Positions 1 through 4,081 of a stretch of 35,690 nt of DNA are shown in pieces; the first letter of the stretch is position 1, and every line of letters starts with the position of its first letter. The position numbers and the translations under genes were made by a program. The stretch is from positions 1-35,690 of the forward strand of contig JAADIO010000036.1 in NCBI GenBank assembly GCA_013151235.1, read 5' to 3'. The notes beneath the pieces are model-generated. The model did no database searches. It was not told where the DNA came from and worked only from the letters and a program-made list of their open reading frames with translations. This DNA is from Deltaproteobacteria bacterium. GTDB lineage: Bacteria > CG2-30-53-67.

Positions 1-1
1 T

Positions 2-397
2 TTGAATGCATCCCACAGTTTTCTCCTCAGCATTCCGGGAGTGGGAAAGATATTGGCCCTGACCATCATGCTGGAGAGCGGCCCCATCGGGCGTTTTACA
101 AAAGCTGGAAACTATGTCTCCTACTGCCGGAAGGTTCCCAGTCGATGGACGAGTAATGGAAAGGCCAAAGGCAAGGGAAACAAAAAGAACGGCAATAAAT
201 ATCTGGCTTGGGCTTTCTCCGAAGCCTCGGAGTTGTCACGGCGTTATCATGCAGATGCCAGGGCCTACTACAACCGGAAAATGCAGAAGACAAACTTTAT
301 GGTCGCTCACATGGCCCTGGGTCACAAACTGGCCAAGGGAGCCTATTATATCATGCGGGACCAAGTCCCTTTTTGCCCGGAGAAGTTATTCGCATAA
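2..397 (+). CDS. IS110-family transposase/recombinase, C-terminal (Transposase_20) part; 5' end lies outside the window
   Basis: SIPGVGKILA helix-hairpin-helix, RF...SYC, SNGK (catalytic Ser position), GNKYLAWAFSEA and A(L)GHKLAK motifs are typical of the IS110/IS1111 C-terminal domain. Confidence 0.92.
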   Translation: MNASHSFLLSIPGVGKILALTIMLESGPIGRFTKAGNYVSYCRKVPSRWTSNGKAKGKGNKKNGNKYLAWAFSEASELSRRYHADARAYYNRKMQKTNFMVAHMALGHKLAKGAYYIMRDQVPFCPEKLFA

Positions 398-780
398 CGG
401 TTGGCTGGAACGGTGAACCTGGCTTGGGGTTGGTGAGAATCCATTAGGTCTGATTGGTCATCCGTTCCACCCGGTATAAAAGTTATCCACCTCTTTGCTG
501 CCCATGCCGTGAGCCACCTCGGGGTTGGTTCACAACCATACCGTCTGTTCTCCTTCCAATGGACACGGCATGGAACCGAAGATTTTCTGGTCCACCGGAA
601 AGGTGGAAAGGGCCGACAGAGTAGTTCAAGCTGTCATTGCCTTGATCCTGATGGGTGACTGGTGCAGTGAAGTTTAGTGCTGACGCCTAAACCGAAAGAA
701 ACTACGGCAATCGCAAGGACGCGGATAACCTACGAAAATATTCGCAAGAAAAAACCTTTTTCTTGCGTAGGGGAGTTTTT
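398..780 (+). ncRNA. Candidate bridge/seek RNA in the IS110 3' non-coding region
   Basis: Stems TGGAACGG 406-413/CCGTTCCA 462-469, CCATGCCGTG 502-511/CACGGCATGG 564-573, TCCACC/GGTGGA 591-607 and an 11-bp stem at 743-767; ATGGGTG at 651-657 matches the element end at 804-810. Confidence 0.6.
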
Positions 781-785
781 CTCTC

Positions 786-791
786 TTGACA
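786..791 (+). promoter_or_regulatory. Outward-facing -35 box at the IS right end (circle-junction promoter half)
   Basis: Perfect TTGACA; a 17-nt spacer puts the -10 at 809-814, across the inferred IS end. Confidence 0.6.
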
Positions 792-845
792 CGGTGCCTT
801 TTAATGGGTGTCCCCCAGGACTCTCACTTCACAAAACACGTCAAT

Positions 846-870
846 AAAAATGGTCGCTGTCCCCATTTTC
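846..870. repeat. REP-like imperfect palindrome AAAAATGGTCGCTGTCCCCATTTTC
   Basis: AAAATGG/CCATTTT inverted arms; shares TGTCCCC with the IS junction at 809-815. Confidence 0.45.
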
Positions 871-1238
871 TCGGATAGAAGAAGCATGTATTTTCTGCCT
901 GAATAAGGAAGACGGGCGATCCGGACAAGGCCGACTCCGGCGGCGGAGGCCGCCCGGACCAGTGAAGGGGGAATGGCGGGTTCTTCCGGTCTCCGGATCA
1001 CCCGCCGGCTGGTTTCACGGGCCGCGATAGGTCCCGTAAACCAGAGCATCCAGGCCAACGCGCCAAGTCCGGCAAGATGGGGGATCACGTAATCCCCCCG
1101 GCATAGGCCTCCCTGACGACCTCAGCCACGCGCAGGTCGTCGGGTGGCAGCAGCTTCCCGCCCGGCCTGTCCCACGAGGAACACCAGGAGGATCACGGCC
1201 GCCAGAAAGATTCCCCGAAACCGGATAGGACCTGTCAT
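870..1238 (-). pseudogene. Frameshifted, internally deleted ArnT/PMT (GT83/GT39-like) glycosyltransferase remnant
   Basis: Joining frames gives MTGPIRFRGIFLAAVILLVFLVGQAGRE / LLPPDDLRVAEVVREAYAGG / DYVIPHLAGL, matching the ArnT N-terminal PDExRxAExAREM...GDxxxPxLxG signature; two frameshifts, and most of the gene is missing. Confidence 0.7.
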
Positions 1239-1355
1239 GCGTAATCCCCCGTAGCCCGGTCGAACAGTCCAACGTCGAAATATTACCGTGGCGATTATAC
1301 GCATACGAGAATATCGTGACAAGCGGAAAACCGTACACAAGCGTATGCAAAAGGT

Positions 1356-1384
1356 TTGACATGCAAGCACCGCCAAACTATAGT
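1356..1384 (+). promoter_or_regulatory. Sigma70 promoter for the nucleotidyltransferase operon
   Basis: TTGACA (1356-1361), 17 nt, TATAGT (1379-1384); places the start codon at ATG 1430 rather than 1316. Confidence 0.75.
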
Positions 1385-1429
1385 GAAACGGGTACGGGCC
1401 GTGAGACTGCGAAGGACGGGGATGACACC

Positions 1430-4081
1430 ATGGACGTGATCACCACCCATGTAAACGCCGATTTCGACTGCCTCGCCTCCATGGTGGCGGCGAAGAAGCT
1501 CTATCCCGAAGCCCGCCCCGTCTTTGCCGGATCACAGGAGTCGACGCTGCGCCAGTTTTTCCTGCACGCCGCAAGCTATACCCTGAAGTTCGACCGCCTC
1601 AAGAACATCAACCTCGACGAGATCAAGCGGCTGATCATCGTCGATACCCGTTCCCGCAAGCGGATCGGGAAGTTCGCCGATCTGGTCGGCAAACCGAACG
1701 TGGAAGTCCACATCTACGATCATCATCCGGCGGCCCCCGGAGACATTCCGGCCGACAAATCGGTGATTCGGGAGCGGGGTTCCACAACCACGATCTTCAT
1801 GGAACTCTTCCAGGAGAGAGGAATGAAGATCACTCCCCTGGAGGCAACGATCTTCGCATTGGGAATTTACGAAGATACCGGCTCCTTTACCTTTGCCTCG
1901 ACCCGCAAGGCGGACCTGGACGCCGCCGCCTATCTCCTGGAAAGGGGAGCGGATTTGAACCTCGTCTCCGATTTCATGACCCGGGAATTGACGGCAGAAC
2001 AGGTCTCCCTGCTGAACGACCTGATCCATTCCGCCACGACCTACGACATCAAGGGGATTTCCATCGTAATCGCCGTCTCCTCGGTGGAAAAATATATCGG
2101 GGACCTGGCCGTACTGGTCCACAAGCTCAGGGACATGGAGAACATCAATGCACTTTTCGTCCTGGTGCGTATGGCGGACCGGGTCTACCTCGTGGCCCGT
2201 TCCCGGATCCCGGAGGTTAATGCCGGAGAGATCCTGACCGACTTCCACGGCGGCGGACATCCCTCGGCCGCTTCGGGAACGATCAAGGACCGGACGCTCC
2301 AGCAGATCAAGGAAGATCTGTTGCAATCCCTGCGCCGCCATATATCCCCCGTACGCTCAGCCCGGGATATAATGACCACCCCCCTCGTCACGATCAACGC
2401 CGGAAACACACTGCAGGACGCCTCGGACCGTATGACCCGCTACAATATCAATGCCCTGCCCGTTCTGGAAGGGGGACGGTTCGCCGGCGTCGTGACCCGG
2501 GAGATCGTCCAGAAAGGGATCTTTCATCAACTGCAGCATACGCCGGTACGGGAACTGATGAGTTCCGACTTCGAGACCGCCTCACCCACGACCTCCCTCT
2601 TCGTCATCGAGAAAACCATGATTGAAAAGAACCAGCGGATGATGCCGGTCATCGACCGGGATCAGGTCATCGGCGCAATCACACGGACGGATCTTCTGAA
2701 GGCGCTGCACGAGGACATCCGGATGAGCCCCGGTTATCCTGTCGACTTCGGGGATGAAGAGGCCGTCTTCAGCAGGAACCTGCGGAAGCTTATGGAGGAA
2801 CGCCTACCGGTCTCTCTGATCGCGCTCCTGGAAAGTATCGGGAAGGCGGCGGACAATCTGGCATTCTCCGCTTACGTCGTGGGCGGATTCGTCCGGGACC
2901 TCCTCCTCGGGATCCGAAATCTCGATATAGATATCGTGGTTAAAGGGGATGGGATCACCCTGGCGAAGAGTTTCGCGGAGAAACACCGGGGGCGGATCAG
3001 GAGCCACCCCCGCTTCGGCACCGCCGTCGTGATCCTGCCGGACGGGTTCCGGATCGATTTCGCCACGGCCCGGACGGAGTACTATGAATATCCCGCCGCC
3101 CTGCCGACGGTCGAGATCAGTTCGGTAAAGAAAGACCTCTACCGGCGGGATTTCACCATCAATACCCTGATCATTCAGTTAAACGGAAATGCATTCGGCC
3201 GTCTCATCGACTACTTCGGGGGACAGCGGGACCTGAAGGACCGGTCGATCCGGGTCCTTCACAACCTGAGTTTCGTGGAAGATCCCACGCGCGCCTTCCG
3301 GGCCATCCGCTTTGAAACCCGTTTCCATTTCACCATCGGCCGGGATACCTCGAACCTGATCGAAAGCGCCGTCAGGATGAACCTCTTTCAGAAACTTTCG
3401 GGCAAGCGGGTCCTGATCGAACTCAAATACCTCTTCGAAGAAGAGAATCCCTTCCCTTCGGTCCGGCGGATGGAATCGTTTCACCTGCTGCAATTTATTC
3501 ATCCCAGGCTGAAACTGCCCCGTGAAATGGCCGCCCTGTTTGTTTCCATCAAAAAGGTGCTGGCCTGGTTCAATCTCCTCTACCTGGATATTCCAATCGA
3601 GCCGTATCTGGTCTACCTGCTGGGCCTGCTCCATCGGCTTGACGAAAAGGACGTGAAGGAAGCCGGCGCCAACCTGGAACTGCCACAGGACCTGAGCGCA
3701 AAATACCTCATCGGGCGGGATCTGTTCTATGACGTGCTGAACCGGCTGGAGCACGACCGAAGAATACCGCCGAGTGAAATCGACCGGCTCCTGACGGGAA
3801 TCCCGATGGAGACGCTGTTATTGATGATGGCCCTCACCGACTCGGAGATTGCAAGAAAACGTTTTTCCAATTATCTGACCCGTGACCGGTCCGTCAAACC
3901 GGAAATCACGGGAGACGAGATCGGACGGCTCGGTTTCGCCCCGGGTCCCGTCTACCGGCGGATTCTCGAACGGCTCCGATACGCCCGCCTGGATGGAGAA
4001 GTCAAAACGAAAGAAGAGGAACTGCAACTGATCCGAAAGGAGTTTTCAGAAAGAAAAAATCATACAGGGAGGAATTCATGA
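1430..4081 (+). CDS. DHH/DHHA1-CBS-tRNA nucleotidyltransferase (likely A-adding type CCA enzyme)
   Basis: THVNADFD, DHH, GIYEDTG and GGGHPSAAS (DHH/DHHA1); tandem CBS pair; VGGFVRDLL..DIDIVV, RRDFTIN and EDPTR (class II NTase). Confidence 0.92.
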   Translation: MDVITTHVNADFDCLASMVAAKKLYPEARPVFAGSQESTLRQFFLHAASYTLKFDRLKNINLDEIKRLIIVDTRSRKRIGKFADLVGKPNVEVHIYDHHPAAPGDIPADKSVIRERGSTTTIFMELFQERGMKITPLEATIFALGIYEDTGSFTFASTRKADLDAAAYLLERGADLNLVSDFMTRELTAEQVSLLNDLIHSATTYDIKGISIVIAVSSVEKYIGDLAVLVHKLRDMENINALFVLVRMADRVYLVARSRIPEVNAGEILTDFHGGGHPSAASGTIKDRTLQQIKEDLLQSLRRHISPVRSARDIMTTPLVTINAGNTLQDASDRMTRYNINALPVLEGGRFAGVVTREIVQKGIFHQLQHTPVRELMSSDFETASPTTSLFVIEKTMIEKNQRMMPVIDRDQVIGAITRTDLLKALHEDIRMSPGYPVDFGDEEAVFSRNLRKLMEERLPVSLIALLESIGKAADNLAFSAYVVGGFVRDLLLGIRNLDIDIVVKGDGITLAKSFAEKHRGRIRSHPRFGTAVVILPDGFRIDFATARTEYYEYPAALPTVEISSVKKDLYRRDFTINTLIIQLNGNAFGRLIDYFGGQRDLKDRSIRVLHNLSFVEDPTRAFRAIRFETRFHFTIGRDTSNLIESAVRMNLFQKLSGKRVLIELKYLFEEENPFPSVRRMESFHLLQFIHPRLKLPREMAALFVSIKKVLAWFNLLYLDIPIEPYLVYLLGLLHRLDEKDVKEAGANLELPQDLSAKYLIGRDLFYDVLNRLEHDRRIPPSEIDRLLTGIPMETLLLMMALTDSEIARKRFSNYLTRDRSVKPEITGDEIGRLGFAPGPVYRRILERLRYARLDGEVKTKEEELQLIRKEFSERKNHTGRNS

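What the first reader, a model, noticed from the sequence alone, without database searches (positions are those of the whole stretch)
398..816. IS110 3' non-coding end with two repeated stem-loop modules: bridge/seek-RNA candidate
Seen: about 410 nt of non-coding DNA after the recombinase stop. Two large stem-loops (closing stems 406-413/462-469 and 502-511/564-573) share an internal grammar GA(A/G)CC-N5-6-GGGGTTGG-..-CCA-..-TGG(T/A)CA. A further hairpin lies at 591-607. ATGGGTG at 651-657 matches the presumed element end (804-810), and GGACAC at 561-566 is complementary to the junction GTGTCC at 808-813. Established: IS110/IS1111 recombinases are guided by non-coding RNA from their ends, located downstream of the gene in the IS1111 group. 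Inference: this is a long multi-module guide RNA whose layout differs from the compact IS621 bridge RNA, and it could be a programmable system.
Basis: partly seen in the sequence, partly recalled or inferred. Interest (0 to 1): 0.75.

Follow-up and report, generated by a model that had tools for sequence, protein, structure and literature searches.

The report
Guide RNA of an IS1111-type element
The 410 bases after this transposase gene encode the structured guide ("seek" or "bridge") RNA that tells an IS1111-type insertion sequence where to insert, which is a well-supported new example of a mechanism published in 2024.

Summary
Window 398-810 is the long right end of a ~1.52-kb IS1111-group insertion sequence. 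Its left half lies on another contig. Across 57 relatives both large stem-loops and the 591-607 hairpin are conserved with many compensatory changes.

- **Stem-loop 1 (403-472)** is the target-reading loop. Its 5' strand is complementary to about 8 bases of the right flank. Its 3' strand copies 5 bases of the left flank plus the core dinucleotide (0 of 5000 permutations as good).
- **Stem-loop 2 (502-573)** is not a donor loop. It is a second, weaker target-like loop, and its role is open.
It copies the right-end tip and core, and the next two bases follow the first two flank bases in 50 of 57 relatives.

This layout fits the seekRNA of IS1111 elements (Siddiquee 2024) and the multi-loop donor guides that Durrant 2024 predicted for them. 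It is a new member of a known kind. This scan has reported similar guide RNAs on other DNA. No expression data were found.

The parts
2..397 (+). Last 131 codons of the IS110/IS1111-family transposase, with the stop codon at 395-397. The first 238 codons lie at the end of contig C35 (L002:878-1591), which overlaps window 1-91 exactly.
   Evidence: ORFs. 100% overlap of 91 nt. PF02371 at E 2.8e-13 and PF01548 at E 1.8e-13. 238 + 131 - 30 shared codons = 339 aa. The catalytic Ser aligns with that of IS621. The acidic residues and the Ser are conserved in 10 relatives.
403..472 (+). Stem-loop 1, the target-binding loop (the short seekRNA equivalent). Closing helix 403-413/462-472, a 2-bp helix 418-419/456-457, and an inner hairpin 431-443.
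   Evidence: I4. helix 1: 9 of 10 pairs change on both sides and 96.5% of cells are paired.
420..430 (+). 5' guide of stem-loop 1, complementary to the top strand of the right flank. The 8 bases next to the inner stem (423-430) carry the signal.
   Evidence: Mean 5.97 of 8 matches against 3.97 permuted, 0 of 5000. The per-position signal runs over positions 1-5 and 7-8. In this copy 6 of 8 match the occupied site.
446..454 (+). 3' guide of stem-loop 1. It copies 5 left-flank bases (446-450), the core dinucleotide (451-452) and the first two bases of the left end (453-454), so it would pair with the bottom strand.
   Evidence: Flank positions -1 to -5 match in 79-88% of 43 relatives against 37-53% permuted, 0 of 2000 each. 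Positions -6 and -7 show no signal. In this copy 8 of 9 match the left junction.
502..573 (+). Stem-loop 2, a paralogue of stem-loop 1 with the same grammar. Closing helix 502-511/564-573, 5' variable strand 516-525, inner hairpin 526-538, 3' variable strand 541-545 plus the core copy 546-547. About 12 extra bases stand where stem-loop 1 has its two left-end bases.
   Evidence: I6, D1. helix 4: 8 of 11 pairs change on both sides. Covariation with the flanks is weaker but real: 3.89 of 7 against 2.68, and 4.60 of 8 against 3.99, both 0 of 5000. The signal is confined to about 3 bases on each side of the core.
572..590 (+). Start of the third module. It has the same five-base lead-in and the same three-base closing motif as in stem-loops 1 and 2. 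578-587 is the candidate 5' donor guide, which would pair with the top strand of the left-end start.
   Evidence: Conserved in 57 relatives. 579-587 pairs with 7 of 9 bases of the last core base plus the left-end start. That score is not significant on its own. The assignment rests on position and grammar.
591..607 (+). It is the first branch of the multi-loop.
   Evidence: helix 6, helix 2: all 6 pairs change on both sides.
609..643 (+). Hairpin 4, variable in length among relatives. Outer helix 609-613/639-643.
   Evidence: helix 3: 3 of 5 pairs change on both sides and 94.7% of cells are paired.
651..659 (+). 3' donor guide. It copies the last 5 bases of the right end (651-655) and the core dinucleotide (656-657), followed by a 2-base handshake (658-659) that follows the first two bases of the right flank. 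It is single-stranded between hairpins 4 and 5.
   Evidence: Exact repeat of 804-810 (D10). It is conserved in 66 loci. The two following bases equal the flank in 50 of 57 rows against 17.6 +/- 2.7 permuted, 0 of 10000. The third base matches in 4 of 57. Changes in the end tip are mirrored in three separate lineages. In this copy the first handshake base does not match the occupied site (8 of 9).
661..687 (+). Hairpin 5, closing the donor-guide segment on its 3' side.
   Evidence: helices 4 and 5: 86-88% paired and 4 of 7 pairs change on both sides.
743..767 (+). 11-bp hairpin with a 3-base loop in the tail of the right end. It may mark a transcript end or a processing site.
   Evidence: I3, 100% complementary. 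helix 6: 8 of 11 pairs change on both sides and 74% of cells are paired.
786..791 (+). -35 hexamer of the junction promoter that would form when the ends are joined in the circular form. 18 bases further on, a -10-like hexamer is made of the last core base and the first five left-end bases.
   Evidence: Read. The first five bases are invariant in 38 relatives. Function is inferred by analogy with ISEc11 (PMC11187229, section 8).
793..802 (+). Right sub-terminal inverted repeat. It is a perfect 10-nt complement of L002:803-812 in the left end.
   Evidence: Read. Conserved and co-varying with the left repeat in relatives.
803..810 (+). Right-end tip (803-808) and core dinucleotide (809-810). The element ends here and the right flank begins at 811.
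   Evidence: Ends defined from five groups of multi-copy relatives and located in this copy.
840..871 (+). An unoccupied copy of a short host repeat related to the insertion site.
   Evidence: Five more copies at 86-97% identity in the same genome.

Best explanation
Window 398-810 is the right non-coding end of an intact-looking IS1111-group insertion sequence of about 1.52 kb with a 339-aa DEDD transposase. It encodes that element's guide RNA. The RNA is built from three paralogous modules.

- **Module 1 (403-472)** reads the target. Its 5' strand pairs with about 8 bases of the top strand right of the core. Its 3' strand pairs with the bottom strand of 5 bases left of the core, the core itself and two bases of the incoming left end.
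- **Module 3 (572-662)** reads the donor. Its interior is expanded into two hairpins, which makes a multi-loop. Its 3' strand (651-659) pairs with the bottom strand of the right-end tip and core, plus a two-base handshake for the incoming right flank. Its 5' strand (578-587) probably pairs with the start of the left end.
- **Module 2 (502-573)** reads only the roughly three bases on each side of the core in the target.

Seen from the opposite strand, modules 1 and 3 have the geometry of the IS621 target- and donor-binding loops, including handshake dinucleotides.

By analogy with ISEc11, the RNA would be made as the tail of the transposase transcript from a promoter formed when the ends join in the circle, and then be processed.

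**Shown here:** the structure, the guide-flank covariation and the guide-end covariation. **Inferred:** transcription, processing, protein binding, the order of strand exchange and the role of module 2.
For: **Family placement**
- Transposase domains PF01548 and PF02371 are present.
- A full-length relative scores 175 bits on NF033542, 'IS110 family RNA-guided transposase', against a cutoff of 140.
- The catalytic Ser aligns to IS621.
- A 10-nt sub-terminal inverted repeat is present, and the non-coding end is 413 nt downstream against 85 nt upstream.

**Structure**
- 25 of 34 RNAalifold pairs are compensatory.
- 95.7% of cells are paired against 83.4% shuffled, and 26 of 37 pairs change on both sides, 0 of 500 shuffles.
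- The tail gives 85.0% against 75.4%, and 21 of 32 pairs, 0 of 500.

**Guides**
- The handshake matches in 50 of 57 rows against 17.6 expected, 0 of 10000.

**Generality**
- Model R1 finds full-length matches in 10 of 18 held-out loci, including a Paraburkholderia plasmid element at 50% protein identity whose guides fit its own flanks.
- A 30%-identical Alteromonas element has an exact 9 of 9 internal copy of its right tip, core and two flank bases.

**Literature**
- IS1111 seekRNAs lie downstream of the gene, with the top-strand match 5' of the bottom-strand match (PMC11187229, sections 6, 9, 14).
- Donor-binding bases lie in a multi-loop in many IS1111 elements (PMC11208160, passage in section 12).
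- Handshake guides are described for IS621 (PMC11208158, passages).
Against: - **No expression evidence.** No RNA run was listed for this DNA.
- **No copy-number evidence of recent activity.** Only one copy is in the genome, and the gene is split over two contigs.
- **This copy sits at an imperfect site.** The first handshake base and several distal guide bases do not match the flank.
- **The 5' donor guide is weakly supported.** It scores 7 of 9, a level I estimate would turn up about five times by chance in this scan. The few natural changes in the left-end start are not clearly compensated.
- **The handshake reading of 453-454 is less firm than that of 658-659.** In one clade (L070, L072, L083, L080, L085) the two bases after the core in module 1 do not equal the left-end start.
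- **Relatedness inflates the permutation tests.** Related sequences share both guide and target, so the real count of independent retargeting events is about ten clades.
Confidence: 0.88

Rival explanations
1. A two-loop, IS621-like layout: stem-loop 1 reads the target and stem-loop 2 is the donor-binding loop.
For: Stem-loop 2 stands where IS621 has its donor loop. In a few relatives (L012, L023, L051) its 5' strand resembles the right-end tip.
Against: - Both strands of stem-loop 2 covary with the target flanks, 0 of 5000 permutations. They follow clade-specific targets near the core.
- In this copy neither strand matches the right tip or the left-end start at the thresholds used.
- The true copy of the right tip plus handshake lies at 651-659.
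Confidence: 0.07
2. The structures are an ordinary 3' UTR feature, such as a terminator or an mRNA-stability element, with no guide function. Alternatively the region encodes a small protein.
For: A hairpin at 743-767 looks terminator-like. Small ORFs of 49-56 codons overlap the region.
Against: - Unpaired loop strands covary with the DNA outside the element and with its own tip. No UTR model predicts this.
- Variation is compensatory in stems, with length changes in loops. This is not the pattern of a coding frame.
Confidence: 0.02
3. The RNA gene is real in kind, but this copy is an inactive relic stranded at a near-cognate site.
For: - It is a single copy.
- The handshake mismatches at the first flank base.
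- Several better-fitting unoccupied repeat copies exist in the genome.
- An assembly break lies inside the gene.
Against: - The reading frame is open over both halves and the catalytic residues are kept.
- All helices, guides, the -35 hexamer and the inverted repeats are intact.
- 7 of 57 relatives also sit at sites with an imperfect handshake.
Confidence: 0.2

Closest known systems
seekRNA of IS1111-family elements (ISEc11, ISPa11, ISKpn4, ISPst6; Siddiquee et al. 2024, PMC11187229)
   Same: - The RNA lies downstream of a ~340-aa DEDD transposase in an element with sub-terminal inverted repeats.
- A first stem-loop of about 70-80 nt carries a top-strand match 5' of a bottom-strand match to the target.
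- A longer form takes in a second stem-loop.
- The targets are short host repeats.
- A promoter forms at the circle junction.
   Different: - The transposase is only distantly related. Identity to ISEc11 was not measured, because no ISEc11 sequence was on hand.
- The paper leaves the role of the long form open. Here the second loop shows target covariation near the core.
- A third module further downstream, beyond the 145-170 nt long form, carries the copy of the right-end tip.
IS621 bridge RNA (Durrant et al. 2024, PMC11208160; Hiraizumi et al. 2024, PMC11208158)
   Same: - The loops are closed by helices.
- In each loop a 5' strand reads one DNA strand on one side of a core dinucleotide, and a 3' strand reads the other strand on the other side.
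- A two-base handshake matches the partner DNA after strand exchange.
- There are separate target and donor loops.
   Different: - The RNA lies at the other end of the element and is read in the opposite sense relative to the recombination site.
- The donor loop is a multi-loop with two inserted hairpins.
- An extra target-like loop stands between the target and donor loops.
- No Rfam family matched.
Predicted IS1111-group bridge RNAs (ISCARN28, ISAzs32, ISPa11; Durrant et al. [quoted passage not shown]
   Same: The RNA lies in the right end, and the donor-binding nucleotides sit in a multi-loop rather than a simple internal loop.
   Different: I could read only the legends, not the figures. 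Whether those RNAs also have a second target-like loop or a handshake dinucleotide could not be compared.

Membership tests
IS1111 group of the IS110 family | N-terminal DEDD (RuvC-like) domain | tested here: met
   PF01548 at E 1.8e-13 on L002:878-1591. The acidic residues are conserved in 10 relatives.
IS1111 group of the IS110 family | C-terminal PF02371 domain with the conserved Ser five residues after a Pro | tested here: met
   PF02371 at E 2.8e-13. The Ser aligns with the catalytic Ser of IS621 and is nearly invariant. The residue after it is Asn or Asp here, not Gly.
IS1111 group of the IS110 family | Transposase of about 330-350 aa | tested here: met
   339 aa, from 238 + 131 - 30 shared codons. 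The 9 full-length relatives aligned are 338-339 aa.
IS1111 group of the IS110 family | Sub-terminal inverted repeats of 7-17 bp | tested here: met
   L002:803-812 and window 793-802 are perfect 10-nt complements. The repeat is conserved in relatives.
IS1111 group of the IS110 family | The longer non-coding region lies downstream of the transposase gene | tested here: met
   413 nt downstream (398-810) against 85 nt upstream (L002:793-877).
IS1111 group of the IS110 family | Site-specific insertion with a shared core at both junctions | tested here: met
   Five groups of multi-copy relatives share similar flanks and the same dinucleotide at both junctions.
seekRNA / bridge RNA | Loop strands complementary to both strands of the target, with the top-strand match 5' of the bottom-strand match (IS1111 order) | tested here: met
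   0 of 5000 and 0 of 2000 permutations.
seekRNA / bridge RNA | A donor-reading loop with guides for both sides of the donor core | tested here: inconclusive
   The 3' guide plus handshake is strongly supported. The 5' guide (578-587) scores only 7 of 9 and has no clear covariation.
seekRNA / bridge RNA | The RNA is transcribed, binds the transposase and is required for transposition | not testable with these tools
   No RNA holder was listed. This needs bench work.
IS110-group (IS621-type) bridge RNA | The RNA is encoded in the left end, upstream of the gene, with two simple internal loops | tested here: not met
   The RNA lies downstream. It has three modules, and the donor module is a multi-loop. 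No Rfam match.

The most novel reading that the evidence does not exclude
The RNA may be a three-loop guide. Besides the target and donor loops it would keep a second, short-guide target loop (502-573). That loop reads only the roughly three bases on each side of the core and lacks a handshake. It might serve a separate step, for instance holding the flank halves of the integrated element during excision, or proof-reading the core-proximal bases. This would give a function to the 'long seekRNA', whose role the 2024 paper left open. The number of modules varies in the family: anammox relatives carry one more target-like loop.
Probability: 0.3. Interest if true: 0.6.

Novelty: new member of a known kind. 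Interest (0 to 1): 0.4.

Why it matters
- **It adds a widespread, uncharacterised branch of RNA-guided IS1111 recombinases.** Among the 80 loci kept, record titles name Desulfobacterota, Nitrospirota, anammox Planctomycetota, Cyanobacteria and an archaeal bin. 509 of 600 candidate stretches encode a relative. Separately, two plasmid elements in Burkholderiaceae are related.
- **The guide grammar is read out position by position.** It is 8 + 5 target bases, a fixed core, 5 donor-tip bases and a two-base handshake. About ten natural retargeting events support it. That is directly usable for choosing and programming new bridge recombinases.
- **It gives sequence-level evidence on two open points for IS1111 elements.** Handshake pairing and a donor loop exist there too. 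The second stem-loop of the long RNA also tracks the target.
- **It is not a new mechanism.**

Tried and rejected
- **Rfam.** Permissive mode on 1-1500 gave 4 matches, all far below their gathering scores (best 19.1 against 110 bits), so there is no known family.
- **RNA evidence.** No RNA holder was listed. One run of unknown kind holds 0.40 of the words.
- **Exact guide-predicted target in the own genome.** There were 0 exact matches and 13 with one mismatch. At up to 2 mismatches the counts were 96 + 96 against 104 + 101 for the reversed control, so there is no enrichment. The likely cognate sites were found only by looking at the repeat family.
- **Pairing of 561-566 with the junction.** Rejected as not conserved.
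- **Stem-loop 2 as donor loop.** Rejected.
- **The two bases after the core copy in stem-loop 2.** By eye they follow neither the left-end start nor the right flank, so no handshake role could be assigned.
- **Covariation test of the 5' donor guide.** The left-end start hardly varies. One relative (L080) changes both partners in a way that creates a pair. Others (L015, L051, L057, the L027 clade, L090) do not. The result is inconclusive.
- **Model R1.** It does not reach the distant Alteromonas element.
- Coordinates were read from the ruler, and the protein length was taken.
- **Not used.** Structure prediction, complex prediction and large protein searches would not have changed the verdict.
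- **Could not be read.** Supplementary figures and tables of the two 2024 papers (long seekRNA folds, predicted IS1111 guide tables) may already show a second target-like loop.

Full report
**What is there**

The window opens inside a gene. Frame 2-397 encodes the last 131 residues of an IS110/IS1111-family transposase (PF02371), with the stop codon at 395-397. Window 1-91 is identical to the last 91 bases of contig C35. The first 238 residues are encoded there (L002:878-1591, PF01548). The two halves share 30 codons and give a 339-aa protein.

A full-length relative scores 175 bits on NCBIfam NF033542, 'IS110 family RNA-guided transposase', against a cutoff of 140. The C-terminal half aligns with the solved IS621 and ISCro4 transposases so that the catalytic serine is matched. 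The acidic residues and that serine are conserved in ten relatives. The genome holds only this one copy.

**Ends of the element**

A scan of one genome per species gave 600 candidate stretches, of which 509 encode a relative. The best 80, at 51-74% identity over the N-terminal part, were kept. Five groups of multi-copy relatives show where similarity between copies stops: about 100-110 bases before the start codon and about 410 after the stop.

All share the same left-end start and right-end tip, a sub-terminal inverted repeat, and one dinucleotide that is present at both junctions.

In this copy:
- The left end starts at L002:793, after the core at 791-792.
- The right end stops at window 810, with the core at 809-810.
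- The inverted repeat is L002:803-812 against window 793-802.
- The element is about 1.52 kb.
- The non-coding part is 85 bases upstream and 413 downstream of the gene.

These are the defining traits of the IS1111 group (PMC11187229, section 6; PMC11208160, passage in section 12).

**The observation**

Folding energy alone is only mildly unusual (z -2.59 and -1.69).

The relatives decide the matter. On 57 distinct sequences covering 398-618:
- RNAalifold predicts 34 pairs, 25 with compensatory changes.
- With the inner stem of the second loop added, 95.7% of cells are paired against 83.4% after shuffling.
- 26 of 37 pairs change on both sides, reached by 0 of 500 shuffles.
- Sliding the partners by 1-3 columns drops pairing to 32-48%.

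For the tail (581-810, 38 sequences with tails of 262 bases or less):
- 85.0% of cells are paired against 75.4% shuffled.
- 21 of 32 pairs change on both sides, 0 of 500 shuffles.

A covariance model built from the first alignment finds one copy in the own genome. It finds full-length matches in 10 of 18 loci that were not used to build it. Of the other 8, one is only distantly related; I take the rest to be truncated, deleted or disrupted copies, which I confirmed only for L043 and L089.

**What the loops read**

I compared the unpaired strands with the DNA flanking each element. Five loci with aberrant alignments were dropped (L043, L059, L064, L084, L089). The right flanks of three loci with a duplicated tip were dropped. 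Identical guide-flank pairs were collapsed.

*Stem-loop 1, 3' strand.* It equals the five bases left of the core in 79-88% of 43 cases, against 37-53% when flanks are permuted (0 of 2000 at each position). There is no signal at positions -6 and -7.

*Stem-loop 1, 5' strand.* It is complementary to the right flank over eight positions. The mean is 5.97 of 8 against 3.97, 0 of 5000.

So the top-strand match lies 5' of the bottom-strand match. This is the order reported for IS1111 seekRNAs and the reverse of IS110-type ones (PMC11187229, sections 9 and 14). Stem-loop 1 is therefore the equivalent of the short seekRNA.

The permutation tests ignore relatedness. By eye there are about ten clades with different targets, and the guides differ accordingly.

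**The donor guide**

The 7-base repeat of the element end at 651-657 is not chance. The same segment is conserved in 66 loci, in a single-stranded stretch between two covarying hairpins.
- Where the right-end tip or core differs, the internal copy differs in the same way. This holds for the L039 clade, for L035 and for L065.
- The two bases after it equal the first two bases of the right flank in 50 of 57 rows, against 17.6 +/- 2.7 expected and 0 of 10000 permutations.
- The third base matches in only 4 of 57.
- The 57 rows are all loci in which both the motif and a flank were found. Nine of the 66 lacked an end or a flank. In two rows the flank was read after the outer copy of a duplicated tip.

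This is the arrangement of a donor guide plus a two-base handshake guide as solved for IS621 (PMC11208158, passages), seen from the opposite strand.

Stem-loop 1 has the matching feature: its flank copy and core are followed by the first two bases of the left end. One clade departs from this.

The segment before hairpin 3 (572-590) repeats the grammar of the two stem-loops: the same lead-in, ten bases, and the same closing triplet. Its ten bases can pair with 7 of 9 bases of the left-end start. That score alone is at chance level. I therefore call it a candidate 5' donor guide on position and grammar only.

Together with hairpins 3 and 4 this makes a multi-loop donor module. Durrant et al. noted such a module for many IS1111 elements (PMC11208160, passage in section 12).

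**Stem-loop 2**

It is a paralogue of stem-loop 1 (30 bases at 70% identity). Its strands also follow the flanks, but only for about three bases on each side of the core:
- 3.89 of 7 against 2.68.
- 4.60 of 8 against 3.99.
- Both 0 of 5000.

It has no handshake. In this copy it matches neither donor end at the thresholds used. In the largest clade it stays near the consensus target, while stem-loop 1 diversifies and the insertions follow stem-loop 1.

Its role is open. Siddiquee et al. likewise left the role of the long seekRNA open, and showed that the short form suffices for ISEc11 (PMC11187229, sections 10 and 14).

**Target and state of this copy**

The flank fits the guides imperfectly:
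- 8 of 9 at the left junction.
- 6 of 8 on the right.
- The first handshake base is mismatched.

The genome holds short repeat families related to the insertion site.
- One has a copy 30 bases downstream, at 840-871.
- Another has five copies whose core-proximal bases fit the guides better than the occupied site does.

Insertion into short host repeats is usual for this family (PMC11187229, section 8; PMC12288879, passages).

Joining the ends through one core copy would place a perfect -35 hexamer (786-791) 18 bases from a -10-like hexamer in the left end. Function is inferred by analogy with ISEc11.

**Generality and novelty**

A Paraburkholderia plasmid element (50% protein identity) has all three modules, with guides that fit its own flanks. 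A 30%-identical Alteromonas element has an exact 9 of 9 internal copy of its right tip, core and two flank bases. The logic is therefore general to IS1111 elements rather than special to this one.

Searches for papers linking handshake guides or cryo-EM to IS1111 found only papers that, in the passages I read, mention IS1111 in the reference list or in general terms. I did not open two of the listed papers. I could not read the supplementary figures.

Earlier reports of this scan describe similar guide RNAs on other DNA and reach the same verdict. None was on look-alike sequence.

**Verdict**

This is a correct and well-supported identification of a known kind of system in an undescribed branch. 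The second target-like loop is the one open point.

Noticed in passing
window 840-871; also G000 C6, C17 (two in tandem), C40, C72: A short host repeat of about 40 nt related to the element's insertion site. One unoccupied copy lies 30 bases downstream of the element.
   Followed up: partly
G000 C5, C17 near 30010, C19, C72 (two places): A second repeat family of about 35 nt. Its bases around the core fit the guides of this element better than the occupied site does, so these are likely cognate, unoccupied targets.
   Followed up: partly
L014, L018, L025, L033, L041 (right ends): The last ~15 bases of the right end (part of the inverted repeat, the tip and the core) are duplicated in tandem. 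In 4 of the 5 (not L025) both handshake bases match the flank after the outer copy. The origin is unexplained.
   Followed up: no
L043: A deletion derivative that lacks all three guide modules but keeps the -35 hexamer, the inverted repeat and the tip. It would depend on a guide RNA supplied in trans.
   Followed up: no
L056, L059, L064, L084 (anammox bins): One further stem-loop-1-like module stands upstream of the full RNA, so the number of modules varies within the family.
   Followed up: no
window 1-91 and G000 C35:24332-24422: The assembly breaks inside the single-copy transposase gene with an exact 91-base overlap. This may reflect presence/absence polymorphism of the element in the sampled population.
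   Followed up: no
window 1316-4081: A 921-codon ORF starts about 500 bases beyond the element. It was not examined.
   Followed up: no
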